Positions 11,921-38,290 are shown, counted from the first letter of the stretch. The stretch: DNA of 64,000 bases from an uncultured Draconibacterium sp. (GCA_964590675.1 CAZPWZ010000001.1:1024-65023); one strand, 5' to 3'. Translations and numbers: made by a program. Notes: generated from the letters alone by a model not told the origin.

Positions 11921-11984
11921 AGGAATCAACGAAACAGGAGTTTTTATCAGTGAAATGAATGAAACAGGCAGTTTTGTCAGTGAA
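11921..11984. promoter_or_regulatory. Tandem 30-bp direct repeats upstream of the LytS/LytTR operon (candidate autoregulatory LytTR sites)
   Basis: GAAACAGGAGTTTTTATCAGTGAA (11931-11954) and GAAACAGGCAGTTTTGTCAGTGAA (11961-11984), 70-120 bp upstream of start 11861. Confidence 0.4.
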
Positions 11985-24179: not shown

Positions 24180-24639
24180 ACAATGTCTATCTGGTATTTA
24201 TAAAATATCAAAAGCAACATGTTTTATCAAAGTATTCATTTTTAATCACATTATCAAAAGATTATGAAAGTCAAACGATAATATTCGAAAATATGACAAT
24301 TTTTCTGGTTATATCCCTCACTTTTTTTTCATCATGGCTCTATTGTTATGAATAATAGCCTATTACAAATAATTTCGATTTCGCAAATGCATTATAACAT
24401 GTTCTGTTTTAGTGATTTTCGAAATTCATCCGTTTTTCCAATATGTCAAAGAACTCATTTTGTTCCTTTTAGATGAGAACGAATGGTCCCATTTTCGCAA
24501 GAAAACCAATATAATAATTTCTTATATTGGTTTTGCGAAAAGAACTTGTAAGTGTTGTTATGAATAAAACCATGCAATTCTGGTTTAGTCATCTGTATAC
24601 CAGTAAAATAAGCGTTTTATAATAAACTTCGCAAATGAA
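24180..24639 (-). promoter_or_regulatory. CRISPR leader (AT-rich, 460 bp between cas2 stop and first repeat)
   Basis: Adjacent to the intact-repeat end of the array. Contains three TTATCAAA(A)G copies (24206, 24224, 24251), a 20-bp-arm palindrome and TTCGCAAAT motifs. Confidence 0.7.
24492..24541. promoter_or_regulatory. Long imperfect palindrome/hairpin in the leader
   Basis: TTTTCGCAA(GAA)AACCAATATAA - TAATTTC - TTATATTGGTTTTGCGAAAA. The arms are 20 nt with one 3-nt bulge and a 7-nt spacer. No flanking T-run. Confidence 0.6.
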
Positions 24640-24924
24640 TTAAACAACAATCACCTGATCCATTCTGTCATTTACCCTTCCTATCCCCGACCTCTTAGGT
24701 ACACACGATTTGCAAAGATAATAATACAGTACACAATCCTCCGTTTCTTTTATCATATTTTTAAGTCTGATTTGTAATTTCATTAACTGACCTTGTGTTA
24801 CCAAACACTCGAAAACACTGTAATTGATGCGCATGCCAATGGCTTCAAGTGTTTTGGCAACCTTTGACCTGCGTTTGTCATCAGCAATATCATATGCGAT
24901 GACCCAGTACTCCTTGTCTACCAT
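24640..24924 (-). CDS. cas2: CRISPR-associated endoribonuclease Cas2
   Basis: YWVIAYDIADDKRRSKVAKTLEAIGMRINYSVFEC is the classic Cas2 N-terminus. 94 aa. Overlaps the RT-cas1 stop. Confidence 0.9.
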   Translation of the reverse strand: MVDKEYWVIAYDIADDKRRSKVAKTLEAIGMRINYSVFECLVTQGQLMKLQIRLKNMIKETEDCVLYYYLCKSCVPKRSGIGRVNDRMDQVIVV

Positions 24925-27203
24925 TTGTGAATATAGGATTTGTAATGTGGTGTTAAATCCAAAAGATAATCCCTTAAATTCCGGGCCTGGTGGTAAATTA
25001 TCTCGAATAACCTCATTTCAATGCCCCGGAATAATTCAATACCATTCAATCGCTCAATGACTTTGGTAGCCAATATTTTCTTGGTGTAAGCATCTAACAA
25101 CCCATTTTCACATTTTAACCTGGGATTCTTCATTAGCAAAGCAAACACCGGACGGTCAACTGCCTGCTGTCTGAACTCTTCTATAAAATCATAAACCAGC
25201 GAGGGCCGATTGTTTTCGGGCTTGTGAAGATAGCTTAGATTCGGGTTTAACCTCGTTCGAACCAGGGCTTCGGTAATTCGTCCATACAGAATTCCATAAC
25301 CATAATTCAGCATGCAATTGACCAGATCTGTAGCTCCCTGGCGTTCTCTTTTTTCAAAAGAGTTCTTTGTATTGATTATGATTGCCATAGTTTCCCAATA
25401 GTTCGTCGCCGCAAGACCTTCCATCGCAAATGCTTTCATGCGAAAATCATCCAGTTCTTCTTCCTCCAGCGCCAATATTTCATCAGCATATTTTATCATT
25501 GAATCACATGCTTTTACCACGGCCGACTCATAGCCTGTAATCCTGCTCTTGTAGTATTTACCGTAATATTTAATAAGGTTGACCTGGTTTGATATTTTCG
25601 CACGAACAATTTTCCGGATAAGATAAAAGCATTTCCCATTTGAATAACTTTTCAACTGGGCAAGTCCATTGGATTCTTCAAACCATTCGGGTTGATGAAT
25701 GATTGCATAAGGTTTCCCGTCATGACCTAAAAAATTGATTGAAATATGATATTCAGCGCATGCAGCAATTACATTTGACGAAAAAACAACGCCTTCACCC
25801 TGAATAATAATGGACTTCAAATTCAGCAGCGGAATCTCCTGAACTACTACATCTTTGTGTTTGACAACAATCCTCCCCTCCTGTTTACCAATCCAGGTGG
25901 ATGGTGTATTTACAACAAGATCGAAACCGGAGGATTCGAGTTTCTGATATTCCCGTTTCCGCTTTTTAACCCCTTTTACACTGCTGAAGGCTGCAGATGA
26001 TTGTTTAGCTGGTTTTAGCGTAGCTTTTTGGTTACGCCTAATGGATAATTGAGACTCAATGTACTCTCGTTTTTTAAAATTATGTTGTTTACCAAAGAAA
26101 TCAAATTTTGTTAATTCAAGGATGACCTTTTTCATTTGAGTTTCTGTACAATGTTCAATATTGGCTTTATGTCGCAGAACCGACATCAACTCATCATCAA
26201 GCAAGCACAAGGTTTCCTGCGGGACCAACTTTGCATAAAAAGTCGTTATCCCTATCAATACTTCGTGGAGTTTTTGTGTGATTAGCCCCTCTCCGATCTG
26301 TGCTGCTTCGGTCATTTTGGATACAAGTCGTTTATATTTGCGCTCGGAAAGTGATAAACCTGTCCCGGAAAAACTTATCCCGAGAAATTCAAAACCTTTT
26401 TCGACTGGAATAACTTTACTTCCTTCATTAAGATTCAGTTGCAGGTGTGATGTAATAACAGAAATTGCGTGGTTTAATGCCCTGACAGCTTCCGTTTCGC
26501 TCTTGCAAAGTATGATGAAATCATCCGCGTACCTGACATAACCAAACTGATTATCAACCATGGTTTTATCAAGAAGGTAGAGATAAAAGTTCGCAAGCAT
26601 AGGCGATATCACACCTCCCTGAGGAATGCCTTTGGTAGAGTCTTTCCAGGAATAATTTCTATTCACCCTCCCCATCGAAACAAACATCCTGATAATTTCT
26701 ACCATACCGGGACTTTTTAAAAAAGAGAGGAGTTTGCTATAGAGAAGATGATGTGGTATCGTATCGAAGAAATTGTCGATATCGCAAACAGCCAGCCAGG
26801 TTAAGTTCTCTTTTGTTATTAAGTGTTGTACCCGACAGATCGCTTTTACTGCTCCCTTTTTACTTCGATAGGCATAACTGACATTGAGGAAACTCTTTTC
26901 AAAAATGGGTGTTAGCACAAATGAAGCCGCCGTTTGTACAATTTTATCATTGATCGTAAGCAGCCCCAAGGTTCTTTTTTCTTTCTCATTCTTCGGAATT
27001 CTAGCCTCTAAATAGGGCTGCTGAATATATTTGCCGCTTTCAAGCAATGCAGCTAACTGCTCAATCTGTTTTTCGGCATGTTGCTGGTAATTTTCTACGG
27101 TTTGATGATCAATGCCCCCGGCTGTATGCTTCATTTTGACCCTTTGCCAAGCCAGGTTCAATGTTTCTTTACTGCAAAATTTTTGAAAAAGCGGGTCATT
27201 CAT
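24918..27203 (-). CDS. cas1: Reverse transcriptase-Cas1 fusion protein
   Basis: The N-terminal half carries group-II-intron-like RT motifs: DIDNFFDTIPH, GIPQGGVISPMLANFYL and VRYADDFIILC (YADD at 26520-26531). The C-terminal half carries Cas1 motifs: NCMLNYGYGILY and LSYLHKPENNRPSLVYDFIEEFR. Confidence 0.9.
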   Translation of the reverse strand: MNDPLFQKFCSKETLNLAWQRVKMKHTAGGIDHQTVENYQQHAEKQIEQLAALLESGKYIQQPYLEARIPKNEKEKRTLGLLTINDKIVQTAASFVLTPIFEKSFLNVSYAYRSKKGAVKAICRVQHLITKENLTWLAVCDIDNFFDTIPHHLLYSKLLSFLKSPGMVEIIRMFVSMGRVNRNYSWKDSTKGIPQGGVISPMLANFYLYLLDKTMVDNQFGYVRYADDFIILCKSETEAVRALNHAISVITSHLQLNLNEGSKVIPVEKGFEFLGISFSGTGLSLSERKYKRLVSKMTEAAQIGEGLITQKLHEVLIGITTFYAKLVPQETLCLLDDELMSVLRHKANIEHCTETQMKKVILELTKFDFFGKQHNFKKREYIESQLSIRRNQKATLKPAKQSSAAFSSVKGVKKRKREYQKLESSGFDLVVNTPSTWIGKQEGRIVVKHKDVVVQEIPLLNLKSIIIQGEGVVFSSNVIAACAEYHISINFLGHDGKPYAIIHQPEWFEESNGLAQLKSYSNGKCFYLIRKIVRAKISNQVNLIKYYGKYYKSRITGYESAVVKACDSMIKYADEILALEEEELDDFRMKAFAMEGLAATNYWETMAIIINTKNSFEKRERQGATDLVNCMLNYGYGILYGRITEALVRTRLNPNLSYLHKPENNRPSLVYDFIEEFRQQAVDRPVFALLMKNPRLKCENGLLDAYTKKILATKVIERLNGIELFRGIEMRLFEIIYHQARNLRDYLLDLTPHYKSYIHKW

Positions 27204-28186
27204 AATACAATCCGAAACTTTCCATATCCAAAAGTAGCGGTGGAGCCAACATGGATCCGCTCACCGGCCCAAAGCAGCTCCGACCAGGGTTCAATGGCTC
27301 CGGTATAGGTTATCTTACCTGTATAACCGTTAAGCCATTTCGCTTTTTCTTTCGTTTCAGTACCTGCGGAATTTCTTGTTTCCGAAGAGAAATGTTTGTG
27401 TTTTTTCCACACCAGGTGATGATCTTTGATGTTAATCCCCGATTCGATCTCACTTAAGGACTTTTCAATATCAAACCATGGCATTTTACAATAAATGGTC
27501 GCGATAAGTGCCAATCTTTTGAATATGGCTTTTGCAAAACGATCAAATTCAGGGATTGATTCTTCGTAATTTCCATTCGACTCAAGCCTCAGTGGCGTTT
27601 CAAAATGTAGCGTGACCTTGTTGTGGAGGCTTCGTTCCCGGGTGTTGGAAAGTGCATGAACAAAGGGCAACCCTATTGCAGGAAGGATCTCGAAAACCCC
27701 TGACTGATTTGTAAAGGAGAGATCAACCGGGTGAAATTTCTTATGGCCTTTGCCGATTCCTTCTTCACCCATTGCCCTTATTATTCCTGGTATATATGGT
27801 AGAAAGATTTCAGCGCTTTCTCCTATCAGTATCAGTTCGAACCAGAACCGGCTACCCTTGTCGAATTGGGCAGAGTTATCGGGCATGGGGTTAATGATAT
27901 AGGATTTTGGAGGTTTAGTGTACCTTCCATACCCTGGGTGATTCTTTTGAAGTTCATTGGAGAATAATTGAAAAAATGGACATTCGAATCGTACTTTACA
28001 CTGTTCGCATGGGGGCATCGTGTCAAATTTACAAACCTGTTTGCGAAATGCATCGCCCATACAACCTCTGAATGTAGCCCCCTTTGTGAACCTGGGCAGG
28101 ATAATCTCTTCATCGGCTTCGAAAGTAATCAAAAGCCTGATATAAGTAATCGATTCGATGATCTGGTCGATGATTCCGAAGGCCAT
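27200..28186 (-). CDS. cas6: Cas6-family crRNA endoribonuclease (stand-alone, Cys-rich N-terminal region)
   Basis: C-terminal glycine-rich loop HVGSTATFGYGKFRIVL. RAMP-like size (328 aa). ATGA overlap with RT-cas1. Cys cluster CKFDTMPPCEQCKVRFEC. Confidence 0.65.
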   Translation of the reverse strand: MAFGIIDQIIESITYIRLLITFEADEEIILPRFTKGATFRGCMGDAFRKQVCKFDTMPPCEQCKVRFECPFFQLFSNELQKNHPGYGRYTKPPKSYIINPMPDNSAQFDKGSRFWFELILIGESAEIFLPYIPGIIRAMGEEGIGKGHKKFHPVDLSFTNQSGVFEILPAIGLPFVHALSNTRERSLHNKVTLHFETPLRLESNGNYEESIPEFDRFAKAIFKRLALIATIYCKMPWFDIEKSLSEIESGINIKDHHLVWKKHKHFSSETRNSAGTETKEKAKWLNGYTGKITYTGAIEPWSELLWAGERIHVGSTATFGYGKFRIVL

Positions 28187-28265
28187 AAATTTCCGTTCTT
28201 TGCTGCTTAATAATTCTTATATATTTTCCTTGTCAGGTGCATTCATGTTTTAAGTAAGCAGTCAA

Positions 28266-29639
28266 TTAAGGATATAAAACATCATCAACGAAGTTGAATT
28301 TCCCGAATCCCCTCCTTGATTTTGCTCCCAGTCCAAACTCGCTGATCAGTCGTTTGATCAGCGTTAACTTATCCTCCTTACTTATCAACCCATCCACCAG
28401 CACAAGGTTAAATTGAAAAACAACACCCGGTAGTACTTTTAAAAAGGGGATGCTGGCCTTGGGACTTTGGTGGGGCTGGCCTTCCGGAGTAATACTGTCA
28501 ATCCCTAGAAACCTGCCACCCATGTTGTCAGAACGAACAGGAAACGAAGTCAAAAAATTATCTCTGGCCATCTTTTTGGTATCTGAACCAGACCTCTTAT
28601 TCTCTTTTGGAAACTCAAATAATTCATATAATAAATCATTTACTAGAATGCCATCTCCCTTTTCTTTCCTCGGATATGCGAGTAGGTTCATCTCTGACAG
28701 AATCTCAACAATGATTTCTGGCTGTTCCTCAAAAACACTTCGCAAAGCACCTTTCAGCGCTTCTCCTGGCAATACGGGCAACCCGGAGGTTTGATCAAAG
28801 TACATTCCCAATAATAGCTCACCTTTTGCGAAAGGTGTCCTCTCCGGAGAATCCGGAGTTGGGATGCCAAAATCATGCGGAATTCCTGTCCCGGATAAAA
28901 AACCGTCACCCGTTGTCCGCGCCAGGAAACTGAAATGAGTGATTAAATTACTCCTGTGTAATAACTCCTGGTCCAGTTGTAATTCGCCTATTTCCTGCTT
29001 GTATTCCGTCAGATTAAGAAGGCAAATGAGTTTATTCTGATTTTTAAAATAATTGGTATCACAATGGTCGAGTTCATCGAATGTATTCGGATAGTAATAT
29101 GTATAATAATACTGGCCTATATTAATTTTGTTTATCGCTTCGTATGAAGGAGAAACCAATGGTGGCATCTTTTTTTGCCTGATCAACTTGGGTTCTTCGC
29201 ATTCCAGCTGAGTAAAGGCACCGGCGGCTTTTTTCAGAACGGTCAATGCAGTCTCAATGAGTTCCCTTGCCATCCATCCCTCACCCCTGGTTTGCTTATT
29301 TTCGACAAAAAGTCGTAATGACATATTTGACGGGATGTTCCGGTTGCAGGAACAATCTCCTTGCCTACTCTCGCAATCCGGACATCCGTATCGCATCAAC
29401 TCTTCAGCAATAGCAACTTTCAAAACGGCCTTTGACAATTCTATATCCGACTTATACCTTCCATTACCAAAATTCCAAACCACCAGTGGCAATTCATAGT
29501 AATGCAACATGGTGAGGAACCCGGATATTTTATTGTCAAAAGTTTCCGGAATGCCCCATTTATGATCTTTTTCTTTCACAATTTCGCACTCATGCAGAAC
29601 AGCAAAAGCAGTTTTTACGATTTCTTCCGAGAATGGCAT
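28266..29639 (-). CDS. cmr6: Cmr6-like RAMP with an ~200-aa helical N-terminal extension (possible Cmr5/Cas11-Cmr6 fusion)
   Basis: The C-terminal half has GLPVLPGEALKGALRSVF and a terminal G-rich loop GLGAKSRRGFGKF. It sits last in the effector block. No separate small-subunit gene is present. Confidence 0.6.
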   Translation of the reverse strand: MPFSEEIVKTAFAVLHECEIVKEKDHKWGIPETFDNKISGFLTMLHYYELPLVVWNFGNGRYKSDIELSKAVLKVAIAEELMRYGCPDCESRQGDCSCNRNIPSNMSLRLFVENKQTRGEGWMARELIETALTVLKKAAGAFTQLECEEPKLIRQKKMPPLVSPSYEAINKINIGQYYYTYYYPNTFDELDHCDTNYFKNQNKLICLLNLTEYKQEIGELQLDQELLHRSNLITHFSFLARTTGDGFLSGTGIPHDFGIPTPDSPERTPFAKGELLLGMYFDQTSGLPVLPGEALKGALRSVFEEQPEIIVEILSEMNLLAYPRKEKGDGILVNDLLYELFEFPKENKRSGSDTKKMARDNFLTSFPVRSDNMGGRFLGIDSITPEGQPHQSPKASIPFLKVLPGVVFQFNLVLVDGLISKEDKLTLIKRLISEFGLGAKSRRGFGKFNFVDDVLYP

Positions 29640-29645
29640 AATTGA

Positions 29646-30551
29646 TTATTTAAGAATATTAAAATAACATGAACCATATCCCACGGATTTATTCGCACCT
29701 GCCTGGATACATTTACCATTCACTTCAGTTTCGAAGATGGTAATGTGGTCGGCGATTTCTGAATTGTCTTTTTTATACAGTACATCCGGTACACGTAAAT
29801 GCGTGATAAACCTTGTTCCCCGGGGGAGAAACTGTTCAACCCAAAGGTTGTTACTCTCGCCCCAATCAATCTTATTCCGGTGTTTAACCGGCAAGGCATC
29901 ATCGTTTGTCAGTTTTTCAAAATGATGTGGCTGGGTTATTACCAGGGTTTTTACCGTATCAGATTCATCAAAGACCACGTTACTTAACCACTCAGGCAAT
30001 ACTTTCGAGGGACCCTCAGTGAGTTGTGTGACAAATTTACCAAGTGTGGTCATTCGATTTATATTGATGTTTGAACCTGTATAAGCAAATATCGATGGAG
30101 TTTCTGATACATAATGTTCATTCCTGAAACTGATATAAAACTTGTGAAAATCATTCATAACAGTAGCATCAGGCTTGTAAATATCGATATCTTCATAAAG
30201 ACGGTCGAGGATTTCCCAGGATGTTACCAAAACAGTTGTGTTCATTCCTAAGGGGACAGGATGGATGGGTATCGGAATAGCCAGCAAATCAAGTTGCTTC
30301 GGGCCGTACTGCCCGACAGATAGCGCTGCACCGTTAAATCCCTCGGCTCCAAATGCTGCATCGATGAACTTCTGATTAGATGGTTTTTGCTCGAAATGCA
30401 TTTTCAGGGCCCCTTTGAAACTGGTACTTTCCACGCATGGAATGCCCCCCACATCTCGTTGCACTACTTTATCAATGCTGTCGGTCGAAGCGTTGGCCCG
30501 ACCCGGATGAAGATTTTCGATTGCCTTGGCTTGAAGAAAATAAAATTTCAT
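29646..30551 (-). CDS. cmr4: Cmr4 (Cas7-family backbone subunit)
   Basis: ENLHPGRANASTDSIDKVVQRDVGGIPCVESTSFKGALK matches the Cmr4 N-terminal pattern. C-terminal loop GANKSVGYGSCYF. Confidence 0.7.
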   Translation of the reverse strand: MKFYFLQAKAIENLHPGRANASTDSIDKVVQRDVGGIPCVESTSFKGALKMHFEQKPSNQKFIDAAFGAEGFNGAALSVGQYGPKQLDLLAIPIPIHPVPLGMNTTVLVTSWEILDRLYEDIDIYKPDATVMNDFHKFYISFRNEHYVSETPSIFAYTGSNININRMTTLGKFVTQLTEGPSKVLPEWLSNVVFDESDTVKTLVITQPHHFEKLTNDDALPVKHRNKIDWGESNNLWVEQFLPRGTRFITHLRVPDVLYKKDNSEIADHITIFETEVNGKCIQAGANKSVGYGSCYFNILK

Positions 30552-30558
30552 AGTTCAG

Positions 30559-31683
30559 TTATTTTATTCGGGTGAAACAATTATATCCAATCTTCTTAAA
30601 CTCGTCGTTATTGAGGAATGAAGTGTCGTCATCTTTCAGAAAAAGCACGGAACCTCGTTTCAACATGTACTTATTTTCTGACCGCCGGGTACTCCCTGAA
30701 ATTTCACTTTCCTTTGATTCCTTCTGGTTGATTGCGGCATAGTCCGTTGTATTTTTTACCGAAGATCGTATGTGCCTGAAAGGGGTGAATTGGTTTATTG
30801 CAAATAAGCAGCGTTCTTCAAAACCTGCTGAAACCATTGCGTCGCTCAATAGTAAAATTTTGTTCCCTTTGAGAGAACTATCATGTAAACACATTTGAAA
30901 ATCAGGCATCTCATCTGTTTCCTGAAAATGAACCAATACCTCTTTTTGTTCTTTTCCCATCACCGAAAAAATACGACTTTCGTTAACGGGCAATGTAGAT
31001 CCATCCGGAACCATTTCATCCACCTCCATCCAAAACCCGAAGGAGTATTCTTTTGGCATAACAAGAAACTCCTGCTTGTAAAAGGCCTCATCATCGGGGG
31101 TTCCATCCTTACTGTTGCGGTTGCCAGAAATCAAATGCCTTTTGAACACCTCCACGAGCGGGGTGAAAATGCCCGATGAATCGGTAAAGCCATCGGCAAA
31201 TCCCTCTTTGGCATTGAAGCCATCCAGGTAAAAAGCAGGGGTTCCCCCTTCGTTTCCATCCTTTTGTAAAAAAAGATGCGCTTTCCCAACATTCTTTCTT
31301 AAGGCAACGGGGATGAACTTGTTTTTACATGTTTCCACGAACTCGTTGGGGCGGTAAAAGAGTGGGGTCTCTTTATGAAAAAGAAATACCGGTGAAATAT
31401 CACGAATACGGCCGGTGGCACCTACCTGTTCGCTGTTTTCCCCAATCAGGTCAATAGCTTTATTAATCGCTTCATCACTGATCTTCCCACCGGCAGGGTA
31501 TAAAATACCATTGATTTGCAGTAAAAGATAACGCAGGAATCCGCGTACACCCGTTTGTTGTGGAAAATAATTACTATGTAGAAAATAGTTAGAGGTGTTT
31601 CCGAGTGGTCCCGTCTCTTCAAGGCCCTGGCCGAAGAAGAGAGAACCTGTGAATTTTACTTTAACCAGGAAGTATTTACTCAT
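30559..31683 (-). CDS. cmr3: Cmr3 (Cas5-family subunit)
   Basis: Position between cas10 and cmr4, with an 8-nt overlap with cas10. The N-terminal VKFTGSLFFGQG resembles the Cmr3 start. Confidence 0.55.
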   Translation of the reverse strand: MSKYFLVKVKFTGSLFFGQGLEETGPLGNTSNYFLHSNYFPQQTGVRGFLRYLLLQINGILYPAGGKISDEAINKAIDLIGENSEQVGATGRIRDISPVFLFHKETPLFYRPNEFVETCKNKFIPVALRKNVGKAHLFLQKDGNEGGTPAFYLDGFNAKEGFADGFTDSSGIFTPLVEVFKRHLISGNRNSKDGTPDDEAFYKQEFLVMPKEYSFGFWMEVDEMVPDGSTLPVNESRIFSVMGKEQKEVLVHFQETDEMPDFQMCLHDSSLKGNKILLLSDAMVSAGFEERCLFAINQFTPFRHIRSSVKNTTDYAAINQKESKESEISGSTRRSENKYMLKRGSVLFLKDDDTSFLNNDEFKKIGYNCFTRIK

Positions 31684-33238
31684 TTGTTTCGGAATTTAAA
31701 AAGTCAATAAAACGTATTGCAAAATAGACTAACTCAGCCTTTTTATCGGCCTCGGATGGAGCTAAATAGGCTTCTGAGATAACCTCACCCAGTCGTTTCC
31801 AATATCCTGCCTTTTTGAAGTCATGTTCACTGAAGTTTTTCTCGAGAAAATTGGACACCGTGCCACCATAAGCAACGGCATATTTCAGGAAAGGATGATA
31901 TTCAGCACTTTTTCTTCGGAATGAATTGTACTCCTCTTTTTCATTTTCGTTGACAACGCGAAAATCGATAATAAATGGAAAGATTTTGCCCAAATAAAAG
32001 AGATCTGATTTTTCAAAGCCTGTTTCGATTTGTTGACCAGAGTGTTTTTGCAGGGTTATGAAAAGTGAATTCTTTTTTTTGAATTGTCCCGACTTGGCCC
32101 TTTGAAGATTAAGGTAAGAGTTTTCAAAACTTTCCTTCAACGGATACTTGAAGAAATTCACCGAAATCCCAAAGGAAAAGGAGGGATCCACGATCTCATT
32201 GCCAAGTAACTTCGTGATGGATTCTTTATGCTTGGTTTCGAACTCCGTATCCAGTTTTTGGACCAATTCAAGGATGTTTTTCGCGTCTTTTCCATGGGGA
32301 TTGGCAAGCGGAGCAAAGAAGAGCAGGTCATCACCCCCGATGTAAACGGGAAATCCACCATAGGCTTTGATAATCTTCGCCGATGCAATACCGAATTGAT
32401 AAAGTGTTGCTGAGAAATCCATTATTTTATCGGCATCATGTCCGATAGAGGTAACAATTTTGCCCATATTATCGCCATCAGCATGTACCAGCGCAAAATA
32501 TTTGTGGAAGGGCTTGAACTCTTTACCAAAGGTGGTTTTACAGTTATTGGTAAACTGTTCAAGGCGTTCTTTTATCTCTTTAGATTGGGTTCTCTCGTAA
32601 CGATCAACATCACTGAAATGCTTTTTTATAAATGGCATGAAGTTATCGTGGCCGGAAAGAGATACAGCCGAAATTTCAAATAAAGATTCAAGGGTTTTAC
32701 TTTGCGGCCATCCGCTCTTCTTGTACAAGATAGTTTCGTTTACTTTTTCAAGGTATTCAAGAAGAACCTGGTTAATAGGAGGCATCTGGTTGAAGAGCTC
32801 CATGTTGTCTAATTGGGTAAAGAGCTTAAGGATGATGTTTTCTCCTTTTGGTATTTTGGCTTTGTAACCATGAATTTGGATGGCGTTTTGTAAAGTTTTA
32901 AGCACCTCCTCCCTTTTGGATTTTTCGGTATGTTTAAAGATGTTACAATAATCTGCTGCAATCTCGGTGAATACCTCTTTGATTTCATTGTGGATCCGTT
33001 CGATGGTCAGTTTTTCACCACTTTTATTCATTTCAAGGATAATCCTGTCGGGATATAAGCCAACAGGATATATTGCATCCTCTACATGAGGCAGGATGAC
33101 CCATTTTTTCAGACGCAATACCACCAGTTTAAAGATGGAAGAAAAAAGGAAACTGGCACCCCAGAGTTCGCGGGTTCGCCGTGCCTGCTTCAGGGTGGGG
33201 TAAATGGGACCAATGGTCAATCCGATGTATTCGCTCAT
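31676..33238 (-). CDS. cas10: Cas10/Cmr2, short form lacking the HD domain, cyclase palm motifs intact
   Basis: Begins MSEYIGLTIGPIYPTLKQARRTRELWGASFLFS, the motif that normally follows the HD domain. HADGDNMG is present, as is GGDD (codons 301-304, nt 32327-32338, checked as GGG GGT GAT GAC). Confidence 0.8.
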   Translation of the reverse strand: MSEYIGLTIGPIYPTLKQARRTRELWGASFLFSSIFKLVVLRLKKWVILPHVEDAIYPVGLYPDRIILEMNKSGEKLTIERIHNEIKEVFTEIAADYCNIFKHTEKSKREEVLKTLQNAIQIHGYKAKIPKGENIILKLFTQLDNMELFNQMPPINQVLLEYLEKVNETILYKKSGWPQSKTLESLFEISAVSLSGHDNFMPFIKKHFSDVDRYERTQSKEIKERLEQFTNNCKTTFGKEFKPFHKYFALVHADGDNMGKIVTSIGHDADKIMDFSATLYQFGIASAKIIKAYGGFPVYIGGDDLLFFAPLANPHGKDAKNILELVQKLDTEFETKHKESITKLLGNEIVDPSFSFGISVNFFKYPLKESFENSYLNLQRAKSGQFKKKNSLFITLQKHSGQQIETGFEKSDLFYLGKIFPFIIDFRVVNENEKEEYNSFRRKSAEYHPFLKYAVAYGGTVSNFLEKNFSEHDFKKAGYWKRLGEVISEAYLAPSEADKKAELVYFAIRFIDFLNSETNE

Positions 33239-33285
33239 ATTTTACTTCCTTTAAAGATCTTTAGGGAACCTGCTTTGATAATCTT

Positions 33286-34908
33286 TCATTTGCTTTCTTG
33301 TACTGTTAATTGCTGGTATTTATCACAGAGAGGGTGTCCGGCTTCATACTTTTTAGTGTTTGTAAGAATTTCAACAAAGCAATCTTTTAATCCGTGCAGC
33401 GGGATTTCGACTCCAAGTCTGCTGAAACCCTTAAAATTCAAGGCGTTCTTTTTATAAATAAATTCAAACCTTGCATCACGGAGGATTTCATTTACCGAAT
33501 CAACAATTATGAAAATCGTATTAAAAAACACCTTGAATTGTACAGGTGATGGTATGCGCTCGATATCCTTGTTCTCTGGTTTCACAGAAATGGTTATTTC
33601 TTGTTTATTATTAATCCATTTTCTATCCAGCAACCGATATTCATATTTTTCCGCCAGGCCTAACAGTACTCTGAAAAATTGATAAAAAGTTGGATGAGGT
33701 GGATCTGTTTCAAATCGCATTTCACCATTATTTTCTCTTAAATTTCTTTTAAGTAATTTAAAATCTTGCTCGTGGTCAATTTTCAATGCTTCTTTAATAA
33801 ACCTTTTTTCCCAACCGGTAGTATTGCCATATTGTCCGCAGAAATATTGCCAAAGTAATGATTTTTTATATGGCTTATTTTTTCCGCTTTTAAGTAGTTT
33901 CCAGTGATCCGTAATTATTTGTTCTAAAGATGAAAAATAATAATTGGTATCATTAAGTGCCTTTTCTGAAATCTCTTTTTGATGATGAGATGTATCTTTG
34001 AATAAAATATTTGTCGGATGTTCAACAATTATCTTATCCTTAAATTTCCATTCGCCATTTAACTCGTATCCCCAATACTTAGAATTAATAATGTCTCTCA
34101 AGCGTTGGAATTCCTCCTTTGAAGATCCATTTGGAATACTCAACTCCTCTTCTTTCTTACAAAAAGACACGAGATGTGTTGTACACAATGTAGAAATCTC
34201 CAATTCATCAATATTATGGCAGAAAACAATTTTATCCGAATTTTCTTCTTCCTTATCAGAATTAAAATACTTAAATAAAACTTTCTTAATGTCGTTTTCC
34301 GTTGACTCCTTCAGAGTAAAACAGCCAAACCCTTTTGAGCTATTATATCCCAAACCAGTAAGGATGAAAAACTCAGAAAGAGAATCCACAATAAATTTCT
34401 GAAGCCCTTTTGACGAGCAAGAAATAGCACCATGTACCTGCCGGTTTTCATAAAGAACATGAGCACGGTCCTGCATCATCGTCTTTCCGAGATATGAGGC
34501 TGTTTCGTCCACCTTGCATTCAAATGACAAATTGTAGTTAAAAGCGATGTTTTCCAGTTCTTTTTTGTTTCGGAACCAGCCGGCAAACTCACAACCACCT
34601 TCTTTACCCGCCCTGCACTTGCCCGTCTCCCCATCTTCATCCTGGCTCAGTACGCATGCCCCCGCATTCCATACTTTATCCCTGCAAATACCACAGGCTA
34701 CCCTGAACTTATTCCTGAATGCCTTTTCGGCTTCTTCCCCCTTATATCCGGTGTTCCTTTCTGCAAGAAATCTATTTAGCATCGGGGTTATTGCTTTGGA
34801 CTGTAATCCAGACCAGGACTCCAATCCAAGATGATGGATGATCGGGGTATGTTGAATTAAAGTGAAACTATACTTAGACATCTTAAAGCGGTTTTGGTAA
34901 AAATTCAT
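33286..34908 (-). CDS. cmr1: Cmr1-like RAMP protein with Cys cluster and large C-terminal extension
   Basis: Sits upstream of cas10 as in cmr operons. G-rich loop GLGYNSSKGFGCF at about residue 190. Cys-rich insert CGICRDKVWNAGACVLSQDEDGETGKCRAGKEGGCEFAGW. The remaining ~330 aa are unassigned. Confidence 0.45.
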   Translation of the reverse strand: MNFYQNRFKMSKYSFTLIQHTPIIHHLGLESWSGLQSKAITPMLNRFLAERNTGYKGEEAEKAFRNKFRVACGICRDKVWNAGACVLSQDEDGETGKCRAGKEGGCEFAGWFRNKKELENIAFNYNLSFECKVDETASYLGKTMMQDRAHVLYENRQVHGAISCSSKGLQKFIVDSLSEFFILTGLGYNSSKGFGCFTLKESTENDIKKVLFKYFNSDKEEENSDKIVFCHNIDELEISTLCTTHLVSFCKKEEELSIPNGSSKEEFQRLRDIINSKYWGYELNGEWKFKDKIIVEHPTNILFKDTSHHQKEISEKALNDTNYYFSSLEQIITDHWKLLKSGKNKPYKKSLLWQYFCGQYGNTTGWEKRFIKEALKIDHEQDFKLLKRNLRENNGEMRFETDPPHPTFYQFFRVLLGLAEKYEYRLLDRKWINNKQEITISVKPENKDIERIPSPVQFKVFFNTIFIIVDSVNEILRDARFEFIYKKNALNFKGFSRLGVEIPLHGLKDCFVEILTNTKKYEAGHPLCDKYQQLTVQESK

Positions 34909-37358
34909 TTCTCGATAAAAAACTGGAAGGAAAGTATATATAATAGTAACAAAATTGCAGAAAAATAGACAAGATACTTTCCTTTGATTTTAAAATATGT
35001 CTTTTGATTTTTTTTAAGATAGATTGTTTTATCCAAATTATAGAAACCAATGGCCGAAAATCCACTCAGTAACACAATCGTAATGAGCAGTAGGACACTA
35101 TCTTTATAGAATCCAATCCATTGAATAGAATCCAATGCAGGCAATTCTTTAAAAAACCTATTATTCAATAAGTTAAAAAGAAATGTCGGAACAACGATTA
35201 AAGCCGCAAGAATAGAAAGTCGACGTGTGCTTTTATTGATTTGCTCCGTTTTCTTTAAGTTGATGTAGTTGAAAAATTCCCTGATCTCCTTTTTTATTTC
35301 TTTTGCATGCCTTTCAATTCTCAAACTCTTTTGCAACATATCATACAGTTCAATACCTTGTTCCTGTGCTGAAATTTCATGGTGATAAATCCTGTTAATA
35401 TATTGTACATATCCTTTGTATAATTTGTCAACTGTTGTAAATTTCTCAATCAGATTATTTGAATCAAACTCATCACCGAATGTAGCAATATCAGATGAAA
35501 ATCTTAAAATTGAGGCCCGTTGCAACAATGTCAACATAACCATTTTTTCATACAATGTCCTAAAATGAGTAAGTAACACATTCCTTGAAAATGAATTATC
35601 CGCTGTTAGCACCATGAAAGAATAACGAGTAACACCGAACAGGGTACCGTATTTTTGCCATCTTGGATATGTATGTTGTTTCAATAATTTTTCCTGCATT
35701 CTTCTATTCTGACACGTACTATCTCCAGAGTCAATAAAAATGAACTCATGCCATGCGTCACTTCTCAAATATTTTTCATATTCCTGGGGACTTTTGCTGA
35801 TTTCCGCGTGACCGTCATTAATCGCCCAGCACATAGTGAACATCCGGTCATCAATCACGGGTTGAGGGTAAAGGTTCTCCCTAAAGTCAAACAAAAGATT
35901 TTTAATGAATCGGGCCGGTTGCCAGAACTTTGATACTCCAAATTCTGAAAAATCTTCCCTGTATCTTACAGGATCTCCATCAAGACCGGTAATTTTTATT
36001 TCGTCCGCTATTTCATTAAAGTTTTTTGGCTGCTCAACTCCCGATATCTTGTCAATAAACGGAGGAAAAATTCTGCGTCCAAAATGATTGATCTTTTTAA
36101 TATCGCTGAAATGTGAATATTGTGTATTGATCAAATGAAAACTTAAAATACCCGTACCTGTGGAAAAAAAGTCAAGAGATAATTTTTCGATTGATAGCGT
36201 GAACGGTTGATCAATACCTCTGACTTTAATTTCATAGCATAATTGTCTATCATGAGTTTCCGTTCTTTCATAATGTTTGATTCCCCATATTAATTTCGGC
36301 GTATTATAGATCAGGGGATGAATAAATTCATAAAAATAATTTCGTTCATTATACTGCTCAACTGCTTTATCCTTTTTGCCGGAAGAAGATGCCTGAACCC
36401 ATACATCTTCTTTATTTGAACCGCTTTGCTTATCCTTTTTCGAGTCTATATTCTCCCATGTCAATTTGTTGGTAAAGTTCTTTTCTTTTGGATTTTCAGG
36501 TTTTTCCCAACGAAATGGAAACATGAATATATGATAACTCTTTGCTTCCAATGCTTTTATATAATCAATTATTTCAGAATTAATCCACGATGCCTCTTCT
36601 TTAGCACACTTAACTGCATCCAACCCGAAGTAGCCAGGATTTGCTCCCCCCGTATATGCTTTATTTTCCTTAATCTGAGATTGGTACTTTTCACCTAATT
36701 CTGTGCTTTTTTTTCCGTAATATGTAAAACTCTGCTGATGCCTGATAAACAATTCATCAAATGGATAAAGCTTGTCGGTAATCGTTGAAAATCGTGGTGT
36801 AAGTGATTCGACAACTGTTACTTTGCCTATTTTAAAGGAGTGTGATTGTATGGATTCATCTGCCAACCGTTCATCTTCTTTAGTGACACCCTGTGCCTTC
36901 TTATCTTCATACCTGACTTTTTTTATCTCTTCTTCAGTCGCCCCCATGGCTTCGAGTGCAGGTATATAACCCTTGTCATTTGCTGCAGCCAAAAGCTGAT
37001 CCCGGTTAAGCGAAAATCCGAGCAGTTCTGCAACTTGTTCTATAGATGAATGTAAATCTTTTTTATCGTTATGGTGATCTATCTCGCGATAGTGCTTTGG
37101 AAGGGGGCAATCCTGTTTAAGTTCAATGCCAACAAACACATTTTCATCATTAAAAACAGATGCATAACTACTCAATGGGGCATTGTCCCATTGCAAATCA
37201 TTATCCTCAACCTTGCTACCCTTGAGCATCTTCTTGATTTCCTCCATTTCAAGATCATGCCCGCCAAGCAGGAATATCATTTTATTGGAATCCTTATGTT
37301 CTTTCATAATAATATATTTGTCCCTTGGATAGTTGCTATGCTGATTGAATTCTTTCAA
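34905..37358 (-). CDS. corA: DHH-family phosphoesterase (NrN-like) fused to a CRISPR-associated CorA-like membrane protein
   Basis: N-terminus: LLGGHDLEME, REIDHHNDK (DHH at nt 37071-37079) and YTGGANPGYFG. C-terminus (nt about 34908-35225): RRLSILAALIVVPTFLFNLLNNRFFKELP aligns with the CorA TM1-GMN-loop region, but GMN reads LNN. Two further hydrophobic helices follow. The ORF-track start is TTG at 37358; the first ATG is at 37307. Confidence 0.6.
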   Translation of the reverse strand: MKEFNQHSNYPRDKYIIMKEHKDSNKMIFLLGGHDLEMEEIKKMLKGSKVEDNDLQWDNAPLSSYASVFNDENVFVGIELKQDCPLPKHYREIDHHNDKKDLHSSIEQVAELLGFSLNRDQLLAAANDKGYIPALEAMGATEEEIKKVRYEDKKAQGVTKEDERLADESIQSHSFKIGKVTVVESLTPRFSTITDKLYPFDELFIRHQQSFTYYGKKSTELGEKYQSQIKENKAYTGGANPGYFGLDAVKCAKEEASWINSEIIDYIKALEAKSYHIFMFPFRWEKPENPKEKNFTNKLTWENIDSKKDKQSGSNKEDVWVQASSSGKKDKAVEQYNERNYFYEFIHPLIYNTPKLIWGIKHYERTETHDRQLCYEIKVRGIDQPFTLSIEKLSLDFFSTGTGILSFHLINTQYSHFSDIKKINHFGRRIFPPFIDKISGVEQPKNFNEIADEIKITGLDGDPVRYREDFSEFGVSKFWQPARFIKNLLFDFRENLYPQPVIDDRMFTMCWAINDGHAEISKSPQEYEKYLRSDAWHEFIFIDSGDSTCQNRRMQEKLLKQHTYPRWQKYGTLFGVTRYSFMVLTADNSFSRNVLLTHFRTLYEKMVMLTLLQRASILRFSSDIATFGDEFDSNNLIEKFTTVDKLYKGYVQYINRIYHHEISAQEQGIELYDMLQKSLRIERHAKEIKKEIREFFNYINLKKTEQINKSTRRLSILAALIVVPTFLFNLLNNRFFKELPALDSIQWIGFYKDSVLLLITIVLLSGFSAIGFYNLDKTIYLKKNQKTYFKIKGKYLVYFSAILLLLYILSFQFFIEK

Positions 37359-38290
37359 ACATAAGTTAACTTATTATTATCAAGCTTACTTTCTTCATCA
37401 AATGTGTAAGCGATTAGTTTACCCCCTTCAGCCACACTATAATCTAAACAACAAACATTATTTTTGTATACAGAGGGTTCTCCTTTCAGACAATAATGAC
37501 CAAAAAAAACATTTTTATCATTGGGAGAATAATAATCAGTGGCTTCAAATTCAGCACTATTAACAGGTTCTTTGGATAAATCTATAACGGGTTCAGCACT
37601 TCTTGAGTTTTGAGTCCTTTCAAATGGACTTTCCCACCATTTAATTCGAATTTCATTTCTTTCCGTCCCATCTATATCCCTAAAGAATAGTCCGTCTGGC
37701 ATCTTCATTTCTTTCCCTTTCAATGCTTGATTAATCGCTTCATTTAAAGTTGTTCCGACTTTGGCCGATTGAGCAATAAGGAAGTCAGGCAGTCTGTCGT
37801 CTATTAAAGTTCTTCTAAGATATTGAATGTTATTGTTGTCCCAACAGGCGTGAACAGCTCTGAACTTCTTAGTTTCATAAAATAGAGGTAATGTTTTAAA
37901 CCAATCTACATATTTTTCGTATTCTTCTTGTCTGTTCTGAAATTGTTTGAGTGTTTCATAATGTTGAATGATATTTTTAATTAAATGCTTTCTAAGATGT
38001 CCTCCCTCAGTATCTTGCATATGGAAACAAAGTGCATTGTATTCATGATTTCCCATTAAAGCAATTGCATTTTCACTGTCAACCATTGCTTTCACTATTT
38101 CAAGAGTTTTTCTTATCTGAGGACCCTTGTCGATGTAGTCACCAACAAATAAAACTGTTCTTTCCGGATGGGCATAAGTTCCCCCTTTTTTCGCATATCC
38201 TAACTTCAGGAGCAACTCTTCAAGTTTGTTTGCGTATCCGTGTATATCTCCGATAAGGTCTATCATGTTTTGTTGGTCATCTATAAACAC
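37355..38290 (-). CDS. Calcineurin-like metallophosphoesterase (PrpE/ApaH-like), first gene of the cas operon
   Basis: IGDIHGYANKLEELLLKLGY, VLFVGDYIDKGP and LMGNHEYN are motifs I-III of PPP/ApaH-type phosphoesterases. The stop overlaps the corA-like start (TTGA). The ORF-track start is GTG at 38290; ATG 38266 (MIDLIGDIHG) is more likely. Confidence 0.75.
   Translation of the reverse strand: MFIDDQQNMIDLIGDIHGYANKLEELLLKLGYAKKGGTYAHPERTVLFVGDYIDKGPQIRKTLEIVKAMVDSENAIALMGNHEYNALCFHMQDTEGGHLRKHLIKNIIQHYETLKQFQNRQEEYEKYVDWFKTLPLFYETKKFRAVHACWDNNNIQYLRRTLIDDRLPDFLIAQSAKVGTTLNEAINQALKGKEMKMPDGLFFRDIDGTERNEIRIKWWESPFERTQNSRSAEPVIDLSKEPVNSAEFEATDYYSPNDKNVFFGHYCLKGEPSVYKNNVCCLDYSVAEGGKLIAYTFDEESKLDNNKLTYV

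What the first reader, a model, noticed from the sequence alone, without database searches (positions are those of the whole stretch)
24640..38290. Ten-gene type III-B (Cmr) CRISPR-Cas operon: HD-less but GGDD-intact Cas10 coupled to a membrane effector, with no CARF/SAVED nuclease in sight
Seen: ten minus-strand genes with 4-11 nt overlaps or gaps of at most 79 bp. The order is metallophosphoesterase, DHH/CorA-like, Cmr1-like, Cas10, Cmr3, Cmr4, Cmr(5)6, Cas6, RT-Cas1, Cas2, followed directly by leader and array. Cas10 is only 520 aa. It opens with the IGPIYPTLKQARRTRELWGASFLFS motif that normally follows the HD domain, so there is no HD nuclease. Both HADGDNMG and GGDD palm signatures are retained. 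I found no Csx1/Csm6/Can/SAVED-like gene anywhere in the window. Established knowledge: in CorA-associated type III-B systems (the Bacteroides fragilis paradigm) Cas10 makes a nucleotide signal (SAM-AMP) that activates a CorA-family membrane effector, and DHH (NrN) enzymes or SAM lyases degrade it. Inference: this locus is a signalling-only type III system whose output is membrane perturbation. The combination of DHH-CorA fusion, extra metallophosphoesterase, RT-Cas1 and a fused small subunit is not one I know to be described.
Basis: partly seen in the sequence, partly recalled or inferred. Interest (0 to 1): 0.7.

Follow-up and report, generated by a model that had tools for sequence, protein, structure and literature searches.

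The report
Known-type CorA type III-B CRISPR locus
This is an intact bacterial CRISPR immune locus of a kind described in 2023 (type III-B, with a membrane "CorA" effector thought to be switched on by the signal SAM-AMP), so it is a new example and not a new system, and the neighbouring phosphoesterase gene does not belong to it.

Summary
Ten co-oriented minus-strand ORFs (24640-38290) sit next to a leader and a 36-repeat CRISPR array. Profile searches give Cas2, RT-Cas1, Cas6, Cmr6, Cmr4, Cmr3, HD-less Cas10, Cmr1 and an NrN(DHH)-CorA fusion.

The Cas10 keeps DGD and GGDD. It also keeps both acidic acceptor-site residues (D64 and E147, equal to B. fragilis D70 and E151) that mark SAM-AMP synthases. 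Both were invariant in 52/52 Cas10s from NrN-CorA loci. No CARF/SAVED gene was found in the window.

The novelty claim does not hold. HD-less Cas10, nrn-corA fusion and RT-Cas1 in such loci are all in Chi et al. 2023. NrN-CorA fusions are common (396 hits in species-representative genomes), and 16 of 80 fetched loci also carry RT.

The metallophosphoesterase is a bystander. It was absent from 80/80 related CorA loci, and 51 loci carrying its close homologues had no cas genes.

No separate cmr5 exists. The orphan 160-aa N-terminus of the 457-aa Cmr6 is probably a very divergent fused Cas11, but the support is weak. Clear Cmr5-Cmr6 fusions occur in 4 related loci.

Lineage quirks are a CorA lacking the GMN motif with a third TM helix, and a Cmr1 insertion.

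Verdict: new member of a known kind. Side note: the spacers are enriched for translation-start regions.

The parts
21720..24179 (-). CRISPR array: 36 repeats of 35 nt (crRNA strand CTTATCAAAGGATTCCGTCCAAGGACTGCTGAAAC) and 35 spacers of 31-39 nt. The two repeats farthest from the leader are degenerate.
   Evidence: The repeat 3' end ...CTGAAAC lies on the cas-gene strand, as in the arrays of related loci.
24180..24639 (-). AT-rich leader between cas2 and the first repeat. It contains three exact TTGCGAAA motifs (one in the opposite orientation).
   Evidence: The leader is conserved in the sister locus L137.
24640..24924 (-). cas2 (94 aa)
   Evidence: Pfam CRISPR_Cas2 2e-22; TIGR01573 above cut-off.
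24918..27203 (-). RT-Cas1 fusion (761 aa). Group-II-intron-like RT with YADD, then Cas1. No N-terminal Cas6 domain.
   Evidence: RVT_1 5e-29, Cas_Cas1 4e-60, PADLOC Cas1_IIIb 1e-154.
27200..28186 (-). cas6 (328 aa)
   Evidence: Pfam CRISPR_Cas6 3e-14; PADLOC Cas6 6e-63.
28266..29148 (-). Cmr6 (Cas7-family RAMP) portion of the 457-aa protein, about aa 165-457.
   Evidence: TIGR01898 1.7e-19, above cut-off. PDB 9lq5_I (Cmr6 of the solved B. fragilis-type complex) aligns query 165-448 to chain 4-311. AF2 pLDDT is mostly 80-95 here.
29160..29639 (-). N-terminal about 160 aa of the same protein: an orphan helical domain with a CxxC-x6-CxC insert. Probably a very divergent Cmr5/Cas11 fused to Cmr6.
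   Evidence: No relatives among 1.84 billion representative proteins. hhalign against the Cmr5 domains of four related Cmr5-Cmr6 fusions gives E=4e-4 over 121 collinear columns (reversed control 0.42). Against 33 standalone Cmr5 it gives E=0.012. It is the top hmmsearch hit of 317 window ORFs, at E=0.034. The position between Cmr4 and Cmr6 fits, and no other cmr5 exists in the window. The AF2 model is helical but low-confidence (pLDDT about 40).
29646..30551 (-). cmr4 (301 aa), the backbone Cas7. D27 aligns by eye with the catalytic Asp of P. furiosus Cmr4.
   Evidence: TIGR02580 96.7 bits, above the 87-bit cut-off; sequence read.
30559..31683 (-). cmr3 (374 aa, Cas5 family)
   Evidence: Pfam Cas_Cmr3 1e-9, above cut-off; PADLOC Cmr3 6e-20.
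31676..33238 (-). cas10/cmr2 (520 aa). HD-less. Carries DGD 254-256, GGDD 301-304, and the acidic acceptor-site residues D64 and E147.
   Evidence: TIGR02577 114.6 bits. PDB 9lq5_B, 3e-35, aligns from chain residue 2. Residues invariant in 52/52 Cas10s of NrN-CorA loci. Meaning of D70/E151 from PMC10600005.
33286..34908 (-). cmr1 (540 aa). It has a Cys-rich insert and an insertion of about 95 aa (aa 228-325) relative to the sister locus.
   Evidence: PADLOC Cmr1 1e-40; PDB 9lq5_A 'Cmr1' 6e-18; alignment.
34905..37280 (-). nrn-corA fusion (791 aa from M27). An NrN/DHH phosphodiesterase domain with an intact DHH motif, then the CRISPR-associated CorA soluble domain and three predicted TM helices. 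The GMN motif is replaced by NLLNNRFF.
   Evidence: PADLOC DHH_CorA 3e-74 and CorA 1e-109. PDB NrN 9lq9, 4e-50. Start site from P0001. TM helices and GMN.
37355..38266 (-). Adjacent metallophosphoesterase (303 aa; PNKP-phosphatase/PrpE/ApaH-like). Listed because the finding included it; judged NOT to be part of the system.
   Evidence: for the family. Absent from 0/80 CorA loci. 0/51 loci of its homologues have cas genes. More than 7,500 homologues at about 70-75% identity.

Best explanation
This is a complete, apparently functional type III-B (Cmr) CRISPR-Cas locus of the 'CorA-1' class in a Bacteroidota genome.

Proposed mechanism:
1. RT-Cas1/Cas2 add spacers next to the leader, potentially from RNA.
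2. Cas6 cuts the minus-strand array transcript.
3. crRNA assembles with Cmr1, Cas10, Cmr3, Cmr4 and a Cmr(5)-6 fusion.
4. Binding of a complementary foreign transcript activates the HD-less Cas10 palm domains. Cas10 joins AMP from ATP to S-adenosylmethionine to make SAM-AMP.
5. SAM-AMP binds the cytoplasmic domain of the CorA-like membrane protein and triggers membrane damage, giving growth arrest or abortive infection.
6. The NrN (DHH) phosphodiesterase domain fused to the N-terminus of CorA hydrolyses SAM-AMP to reset the system.
7. Cmr4 probably also cleaves the bound RNA.

What is shown here: the gene identities, the motif conservation and the locus architecture. What is inferred from the B. 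fragilis paradigm: the SAM-AMP chemistry, CorA activation and NrN turnover. The upstream metallophosphoesterase is only a neighbouring gene.
For: - All Cas and effector assignments come from three profile libraries.
- Cas10, Cmr1, Cmr6 and NrN each match chains of solved entries 9lq5-9lqc. I take these to be the B. fragilis system because the Cas10 numbering D70 and D328/D329 matches Chi et al. exactly.
- Cas10 starts directly with the Cmr2_N motif, so it has no HD.
- GGDD and DGD are intact. D64 and E147 correspond to B. fragilis D70 and E151. Those two acidic residues are 'absolutely conserved' in CorA-1 Cas10s, and their mutation abolishes SAM-AMP synthesis (PMC10600005). Both are invariant in 52/52 Cas10s next to NrN-CorA fusions.
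- The DHH motif is invariant in the fusion family.
- Gene order nrn-corA, cmr1, cas10, cmr3, cmr4, (cmr5) cmr6 recurs in dozens of the 80 related loci.
- The array is long and homogeneous, with the degenerate repeats at the leader-distal end.
- No CARF/SAVED or other known cOA effector is present in the window.
Against: - There is no biochemical evidence for this locus.
- The CorA domain belongs to a small subclade (P0001-P0006) that lacks the GMN pore motif kept by most relatives and has a third TM helix. The membrane mechanism could therefore differ.
- No standalone Cmr5 exists, and the putative fused Cas11 domain has only weak statistical support.
- No protospacer was found for any spacer, so activity against real targets is unproven.
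- The sister locus L137 shows only one repeat. This may be assembly collapse.
Confidence: 0.85

Rival explanations
1. The Cas10 makes cyclic oligoadenylate (for example cA6 or cA4), not SAM-AMP, and the CorA effector senses that signal. This has been proposed for the Actinomyces CorA/Csm6-2 clade.
For: Hoikkala et al. 2024 (PMC11229360) argue that some CorA clades may respond to cA6. The GGDD cyclase chemistry is generic. This CorA subclade has a diverged TM region.
Against: Both SAM-site acidic residues (D64, E147) are present. The effector is fused to NrN, the SAM-AMP phosphodiesterase (PDB NrN 4e-50). No Csm6-2, CARF or ring nuclease is present. The locus is III-B of Bacteroidota, like the characterised CorA-1 cluster.
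Confidence: 0.07
2. The metallophosphoesterase is a lineage-specific tenth component, for example a second signal-degrading or by-product-hydrolysing enzyme recruited to this operon.
For: It is on the same strand, only 74 nt upstream of nrn-corA, with no terminator-like site between them. The adjacency, plus about 370 nt of upstream DNA at 87% identity, is kept in the sister locus L002/L137. It belongs to a nucleotide-phosphoesterase family (PrpE/ApaH/PNKP-like).
Against: It is absent from 80/80 other NrN-CorA loci, 62 of which have more than 1.2 kb of upstream sequence. None of 51 loci carrying its 56-75%-identical homologues has any cas or CorA gene. The family is huge and highly conserved across Bacteroidota (more than 7,500 hits), which fits a housekeeping gene. 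The one shared case is a close relative (about 80-95% protein identity), so inherited adjacency is enough to explain it.
Confidence: 0.06
3. The first 160 residues of the 457-aa protein are not a Cas11/Cmr5 small subunit but an unrelated, lineage-specific domain, and the complex lacks a small subunit or uses one encoded elsewhere.
For: There are no homologues in 1.84 billion representative proteins. There are no Pfam, PADLOC or PDB hits. Support from hmmsearch is only E=0.034 and from hhalign 0.012 to 4e-4. The AF2 model has pLDDT of about 40. The GLL motif of Cmr5 is not conserved.
Against: The domain occupies exactly the slot where 33 related loci have a 116-181 aa cmr5 and four have clear Cmr5-Cmr6 fusions (E 1e-20 to 1e-27). 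The weak alignments are collinear over about 120 columns, and reversed-sequence controls align only about 20 columns. It is predicted helical and is of Cas11 size. It is the best Cmr5-HMM hit of 317 ORFs in the window.
Confidence: 0.25

Closest known systems
Bacteroides fragilis type III-B Cmr / CorA / NrN SAM-AMP system (Chi et al. 2023, PMC10600005; PDB 9lq5-9lqc)
   Same: HD-less Cas10 with GGDD and the D70/E151-equivalent acidic residues. Cmr1, 3, 4 and 6. CRISPR-associated CorA and an NrN DHH phosphodiesterase. Bacteroidota host. Direct sequence matches to the solved Cas10, Cmr1, Cmr6 and NrN chains.
   Different: Here NrN and CorA are one polypeptide. cmr5 is not a separate gene. Cas10 is 520 aa against 600 aa. 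Cmr1 carries extra inserts. The adaptation module is RT-Cas1. The CorA TM region lacks GMN and has a third predicted helix.
Aliarcobacter butzleri-type CorA-1 loci with fused nrn-corA (Chi et al. 2023, Fig. 1b text)
   Same: The same NrN-CorA fusion architecture. It is widespread: 365 database proteins and 396 hits in species-representative genomes.
   Different: The closest genome-collection relatives are at most 44% identical. The window protein falls in a small subclade (at least 45% identity, P0001-P0006) with a distinct C-terminus.
RT-Cas1-associated type III-B systems (for example Marinomonas mediterranea) and the Bacteroidota RT-Cas1 plus CorA modules discussed with type VI-B1 (PMC11662929)
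   Same: An RT-Cas1 fusion plus Cas2 next to a type III-B effector module. 16 of 80 related NrN-CorA loci also carry RT.
   Different: There is no Cas6 domain fused to RT-Cas1 here; cas6 is a separate gene. RNA-derived acquisition is not tested.
Actinomyces CorA / Csm6-2 clade (Hoikkala et al. 2024, PMC11229360)
   Same: A CRISPR-associated CorA-family membrane effector.
   Different: That clade lacks SAM-AMP-degrading enzymes and is predicted to sense cA6. This locus has NrN and the SAM-type Cas10 residues.

Membership tests
Type III-B (Cmr) CRISPR-Cas | Cas10/Cmr2 large subunit with two palm domains | tested here: met
   TIGR02577 114.6 bits (cut-off 79.4); Pfam Cmr2_N plus Cas10-Cmr2_palm2; PDB 9lq5_B 3e-35.
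Type III-B (Cmr) CRISPR-Cas | Cmr1, Cmr3, Cmr4 and Cmr6 RAMP subunits | tested here: met
   Cmr4 TIGR02580 96.7 bits (cut-off 87). Cmr6 TIGR01898 70.8 bits (cut-off 51.1). Cmr3 Pfam 38.5 bits (cut-off 21), though TIGR01888 is below its cut-off. Cmr1 PADLOC 1e-40 and PDB 9lq5_A 6e-18.
Type III-B (Cmr) CRISPR-Cas | Cmr5 (Cas11) small subunit | tested here: inconclusive
   No separate gene exists, and no significant Cmr5-HMM hit was found among 317 window ORFs (best E=0.034, the N-terminus of the Cmr6 protein). hhalign gives 4e-4 to 0.012, collinear. AF2 confidence is low.
Type III-B (Cmr) CRISPR-Cas | Adjacent CRISPR array with Cas6-type repeat ending in an 8-nt handle-like ...GAAAC on the cas strand | tested here: met
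   36 repeats; crRNA-strand repeat ends GCTGAAAC; related loci end CTGAAAC or TTGAGAC.
CorA-1 SAM-AMP signalling systems | CRISPR-associated CorA: large soluble N-domain plus C-terminal TM helices | tested here: met
   PADLOC CorA 1e-109 over aa 271-765; three hydrophobic segments at the C-terminus. The GMN motif is not conserved in this subclade.
CorA-1 SAM-AMP signalling systems | Linked SAM-AMP-degrading enzyme (NrN, DEDD or SAM-AMP lyase) | tested here: met
   N-terminal domain matches PDB NrN 9lq9 at 4e-50 and PADLOC DHH_CorA at 3e-74. The DHH motif is invariant in the alignment.
CorA-1 SAM-AMP signalling systems | Cas10 acceptor-site acidic residues equivalent to B. fragilis D70 and E151, plus GGDD | tested here: met
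   D64, E147 and G301-G302-D303-D304. D64 and E147 are invariant in 52/52 Cas10s of NrN-CorA loci. D64=D70 follows from the direct alignment to 9lq5_B. E147=E151 is inferred from its invariance and spacing.
CorA-1 SAM-AMP signalling systems | Cas10 lacks the HD nuclease domain | tested here: met
   The protein starts at Cmr2_N profile position 1 and at residue 2 of the HD-less B. fragilis Cas10.
CorA-1 SAM-AMP signalling systems | Cas10 actually synthesises SAM-AMP; CorA binds it; NrN cleaves it | not testable with these tools
   This needs biochemistry. It is inferred only from residue conservation and the B. fragilis experiments.
cOA-signalling type III systems with CARF/SAVED effectors | A CARF- or SAVED-domain effector or a ring nuclease in or next to the locus | tested here: not met
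   No such family appeared among the 10 operon proteins (Pfam, NCBIfam, PADLOC) or among 30 other window proteins (Pfam; PADLOC on 10 proteins). ORFs under 100 aa and a few proteins with no hit at all cannot be excluded.
RT-Cas1 adaptation modules | Single polypeptide with an RT domain (YADD) N-terminal to Cas1, followed by cas2 | tested here: met
   RVT_1 at 69-277, Cas_Cas1 at 429-693, group-II RT/maturase 2e-73; the YADD motif is visible in the sequence.

The most novel reading that the evidence does not exclude
This lineage may be a structurally remodelled CorA-1 system. It would have a single Cys-knuckle-bearing Cas11 domain tethered to Cmr6, where canonical Cmr complexes have several free Cmr5 copies. 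Its NrN-CorA would have lost the GMN pore motif and gained a third TM helix.

In addition, the RT-Cas1 array is enriched for spacers antisense to translation-start regions. 21/34 unique spacers span an open ATG on the target-sense strand, against 7/34 on the other strand. That could reflect capture of mRNA 5' ends, for example RT run-off cDNA ends, and not only selection.
Probability: 0.2. Interest if true: 0.6.

Novelty: new member of a known kind. Interest (0 to 1): 0.25.

Why it matters
The locus adds one more intact example, from an uncultured Bacteroidota genome, to the SAM-AMP/CorA branch of type III CRISPR signalling. It does not change the picture of that branch.

Its practical value has three parts. 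First, it shows that the SAM-site signature (D70/E151 equivalents) holds across 52 Cas10s linked to NrN-CorA fusions. Second, it documents lineage variants (Cmr5-Cmr6 fusion, GMN-less three-helix CorA) that could inform structural work on how the effector and the minor filament function. Third, it removes a false lead, the metallophosphoesterase.

The spacer pattern around start codons would bear on how RT-Cas1 modules choose RNA-derived spacers, if it generalises.

Tried and rejected
1. Metallophosphoesterase as a system component. Rejected after tblastn of 80 NrN-CorA loci (0 hits), three context look-ups and 47 metagenomic loci of its homologues (no cas genes). None of its neighbours is conserved across 20 loci. 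GC content did not discriminate.

2. Sequence search for relatives of the 160-aa N-domain. Nothing was found in 1.84 billion representatives, and there was no PDB hit.

3. AF2 model of the 457-aa protein. The N-domain pLDDT was about 40, so no fold search was run.

4. The very strong hhalign score (E=5e-21) is discounted, because the query profile contained the four clear fusions.

5. Protospacer hunts all came back empty: the whole array against the phage collection and four exact spacer cores against IMG/VR. No self-targets were found in the window.

6. The sister-locus array was meant as a replicate for the spacer bias, but only one repeat is assembled.

7. Sigma-70 promoter and terminator scans gave no more matches than chance and do not suit Bacteroidota promoters.

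8. Rfam found no family in the window.

Full report
**1. Observation**

The ten minus-strand ORFs are present exactly as listed. Junctions are overlaps of 4-8 nt or gaps of 6-79 nt.

A CRISPR array of 36 repeats of 35 nt lies at 21720-24179. Its two degenerate copies are at the low-coordinate end. A 460-nt AT-rich leader (24180-24639) separates it from cas2. On the cas-gene strand the repeat ends ...GCTGAAAC, like the arrays of related loci. The array is therefore transcribed on the minus strand from the leader.

Database gene calls move two starts. nrn-corA begins at M27 (791 aa, P0001). The phosphoesterase gene begins at M9 (303 aa, P0121). That leaves a 74-nt gap between them.

**2. Gene identities**

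Pfam, NCBIfam and PADLOC agree. In order the genes are:
- Cas2.
- RT-Cas1 (PADLOC Cas1_IIIb 1e-154).
- Cas6 (6e-63).
- Cmr6 (TIGR01898 above cut-off, but only for the C-terminal part of the 457-aa protein).
- Cmr4 (TIGR02580 above cut-off).
- Cmr3.
- Cas10/Cmr2 (TIGR02577 above cut-off).
- Cmr1 (1e-40).
- A fusion of the CorA-associated DHH domain (3e-74) with the CRISPR-associated CorA (1e-109).
- A calcineurin-like metallophosphoesterase.

Four proteins match chains of solved entries 9lq5-9lqc: Cas10 (3e-35), Cmr1 (6e-18), Cmr6 (4e-12) and NrN (4e-50). The Cas10 chain numbering (D70, D328/D329) coincides with that used for B. fragilis by Chi et al., so I take these entries to be the B. fragilis system.

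**3. Cas10**

The protein starts at profile position 1 of Cmr2_N and at residue 2 of the HD-less B. fragilis Cas10. There is no HD domain.

I aligned 52 Cas10s taken from NrN-CorA loci. The invariant positions include D254-G255-D256, G302 and D304, D64 and E147; G301 and D303 are conserved in 51 of 52.

Chi et al. report that D70 and E151 are absolutely conserved in CorA-1 Cas10s, line the SAM acceptor site, and are needed for SAM-AMP synthesis (PMC10600005). D64 equals D70 by direct alignment. E147 equals E151 by invariance and spacing. This is the strongest in silico argument that the signal is SAM-AMP and not cOA.

**4. Effector**

The NrN-CorA fusion is common. There are 365 database homologues, most of them full-length, and 396 hits in species-representative genomes, mainly Bacteroidota, Ignavibacteriota and Campylobacterota. 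The DHH motif is invariant.

The window protein and five relatives (at least 45% identity) form a subclade. In it the GMN/GIN motif after the first TM helix is replaced by NLLNNRFF, and a third hydrophobic helix is appended. This is a lineage-specific difference of unknown consequence.

**5. Small subunit**

There is no separate cmr5. PDB Cmr6 aligns from residue 165 of the 457-aa protein, leaving a 160-aa N-terminal domain.

That domain has no relatives in 1.84 billion representative proteins other than its own cluster. It has no PDB hit. Its AF2 model is helical but of low confidence.

In 44 related loci with both cmr4 and cmr6:
- Most have an ORF of roughly 116-181 aa between them, and I took 33 of these as standalone Cmr5.
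- Four (L014, L022, L082, L083) have a single long ORF whose N-terminus hits the Cmr5 HMM at 1e-20 to 1e-27.

Cmr5-Cmr6 fusion is therefore a recurrent variant in Bacteroidales.

The window domain aligns collinearly with those fused Cmr5 domains (hhalign E=4e-4, 121 columns; reversed control 0.42). It also aligns with standalone Cmr5 (E=0.012), and it is the top Cmr5-HMM hit in the window (E=0.034). I read it as a very divergent Cas11 with a CxxC-x6-CxC insert, at about 75% confidence.

From general knowledge, Cmr complexes contain several Cmr5 copies but one Cmr6. A fusion would then supply only one Cas11 per complex. That is an inference worth a structural test.

**6. Metallophosphoesterase**

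It is PNKP-phosphatase/PrpE/ApaH-like. More than 7,500 homologues reach E<=1e-10, and the best hits are 70-76% identical across several Bacteroidota orders.

None of 80 related NrN-CorA loci encodes a homologue, and 62 of them have more than 1.2 kb of upstream sequence. None of 51 loci carrying close homologues (343 kb in total) encodes any Cas or CorA protein.

Only the sister locus L002/L137 (about 80-95% identical proteins) shares the adjacency, together with 370 nt of upstream DNA. Common descent explains that. I conclude it is a neighbouring gene. A residual 6% is left for lineage-specific co-option.

**7. Other effectors**

Thirty other window proteins were scanned with Pfam, and ten also with PADLOC. 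No CARF, SAVED, Csx1/Csm6, Can or NucC family appeared. Por_Secre_tail domains mark the host as Bacteroidota.

**8. Comparison with the literature**

Chi et al. 2023 already describe the HD-less Cas10, nrn-corA fusions (A. butzleri) and RT-Cas1 in CorA-1 loci. PMC11662929 links RT-Cas1 and CorA modules in Bacteroidota. Sixteen of the 80 related loci fetched here combine an NrN-CorA fusion with RT.

Its novelty claim, and its inclusion of the phosphoesterase, are not.

I found no paper that mentions Cmr5-Cmr6 fusions in CorA systems. That search covers open-access text only.

**9. Verdict**

This is a new member of a known kind. The mechanism in the best explanation rests on the B. fragilis paradigm plus conserved residues. 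The biochemistry is untested.

**10. Side observation: spacers**

On the target-sense strand, 26 of 34 unique spacers contain ATG, against 10 of 34 on the other strand. Twenty-one of 34 have an ATG that stays open to the spacer end. The comparison values are 7/34 on the opposite strand, 7.3 +/- 2.4 in shuffles (0 of 5000 shuffles reach 21), and 35% for random internal sense 34-mers from this genome's genes (binomial p=0.0013).

Many of these spacers read like Bacteroidota translation starts: an A-rich leader followed by ATGAAAAA. Two spacers cover the same start region and differ by one codon, and one spacer is duplicated.

The same bias appears in L083 (11 against 2, of 25) and in L022 (6 against 1, of 10), but not in the other arrays.

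There is a partial precedent. Enrichment of type III-A spacers near gene starts was reported in S. thermophilus (PMC8860593).

No protospacers were found, so this remains an unexplained lead.

Noticed in passing
window 21755-24144 (spacers): Spacers are enriched for translation-start-like sequence on the target-sense strand. 21/34 unique spacers have an open ATG, against 7/34 on the opposite strand, 7.3 +/- 2.4 in shuffles, and 35% for random internal sense 34-mers (p=0.0013). Many read A-rich leader plus ATGAAAAA. A similar bias is seen in the arrays of L083 and L022, but not in other related loci.
   Followed up: partly
window 22104-22138 and 23830-23862; 23209-23239 and 23275-23305: Spacers 6 and 31 cover the same gene-start region and differ by a 3-nt (one codon) indel. 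Spacers 22 and 23 are identical duplicates.
   Followed up: no
window 24379-24540 (leader): Three exact copies of TTGCGAAA (one in the opposite orientation), plus a near-copy at about 24625, lie within the 460-nt leader. The whole 64-kb window has 8 copies against 4.2 expected. The motifs are conserved in the sister locus L137. They may be a regulator or integration-host-factor-type site.
   Followed up: partly
window 18787-21513 (-), and L051 4727-6973: A 908-aa protein lies just beyond the array. It has a receiver-like N-domain plus a HerA/TraG-type ATPase (PADLOC mad8 1e-12; weak hit to 'HerA, type III coevolved'). It has a 34%-identical homologue directly upstream of the NrN-CorA gene in locus L051. 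This is 1 of 80 loci, so it could be chance or a rare accessory.
   Followed up: partly
window 16799-17689 (-), 17743-18504 (+), 38843-39919 (+): A NERD-domain nuclease, a 253-aa protein with no family hit, and an MBL-fold protein (PADLOC LmuA/PDC-M48B-like, 8e-15) flank the CRISPR locus. This suggests a defence-island setting.
   Followed up: no
window 34905-35100 (C-terminus of NrN-CorA): The subclade P0001-P0006 of NrN-CorA lacks the GMN/GIN motif (it has NLLNNRFF) and has an extra third predicted TM helix compared with about 26 other aligned fusions.
   Followed up: partly
window 33934-34227 (Cmr1 aa 228-325) and Cmr1 aa about 80-120: Cmr1 carries an in-frame insertion of about 95 aa that is absent from the 72%-identical sister protein. 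It also has a Cys-rich insert that is shared with the sister but absent from a more distant relative (L003).
   Followed up: no
L137 14253-14288: The sister locus (Logan SRR28229726) has the same leader and an identical repeat, but only one repeat copy is assembled, followed by unrelated ORFs. This is either assembly collapse or an array-less relative.
   Followed up: no
L086-L136 (loci of phosphoesterase homologues): The 303-aa metallophosphoesterase is conserved at 56-75% identity, yet none of its neighbours on either side is conserved across 20 loci. Some contexts contain defence genes (McrBC, AbiEi/AbiEii, WYL, an RT).
   Followed up: partly
window 60159-60919 and 11924-11984: There are tandem repeats unrelated to the finding: a 294-nt period x2.6 inside the 1035-aa ORF at 59186-62293, and a 30-nt period x2.
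   Followed up: no
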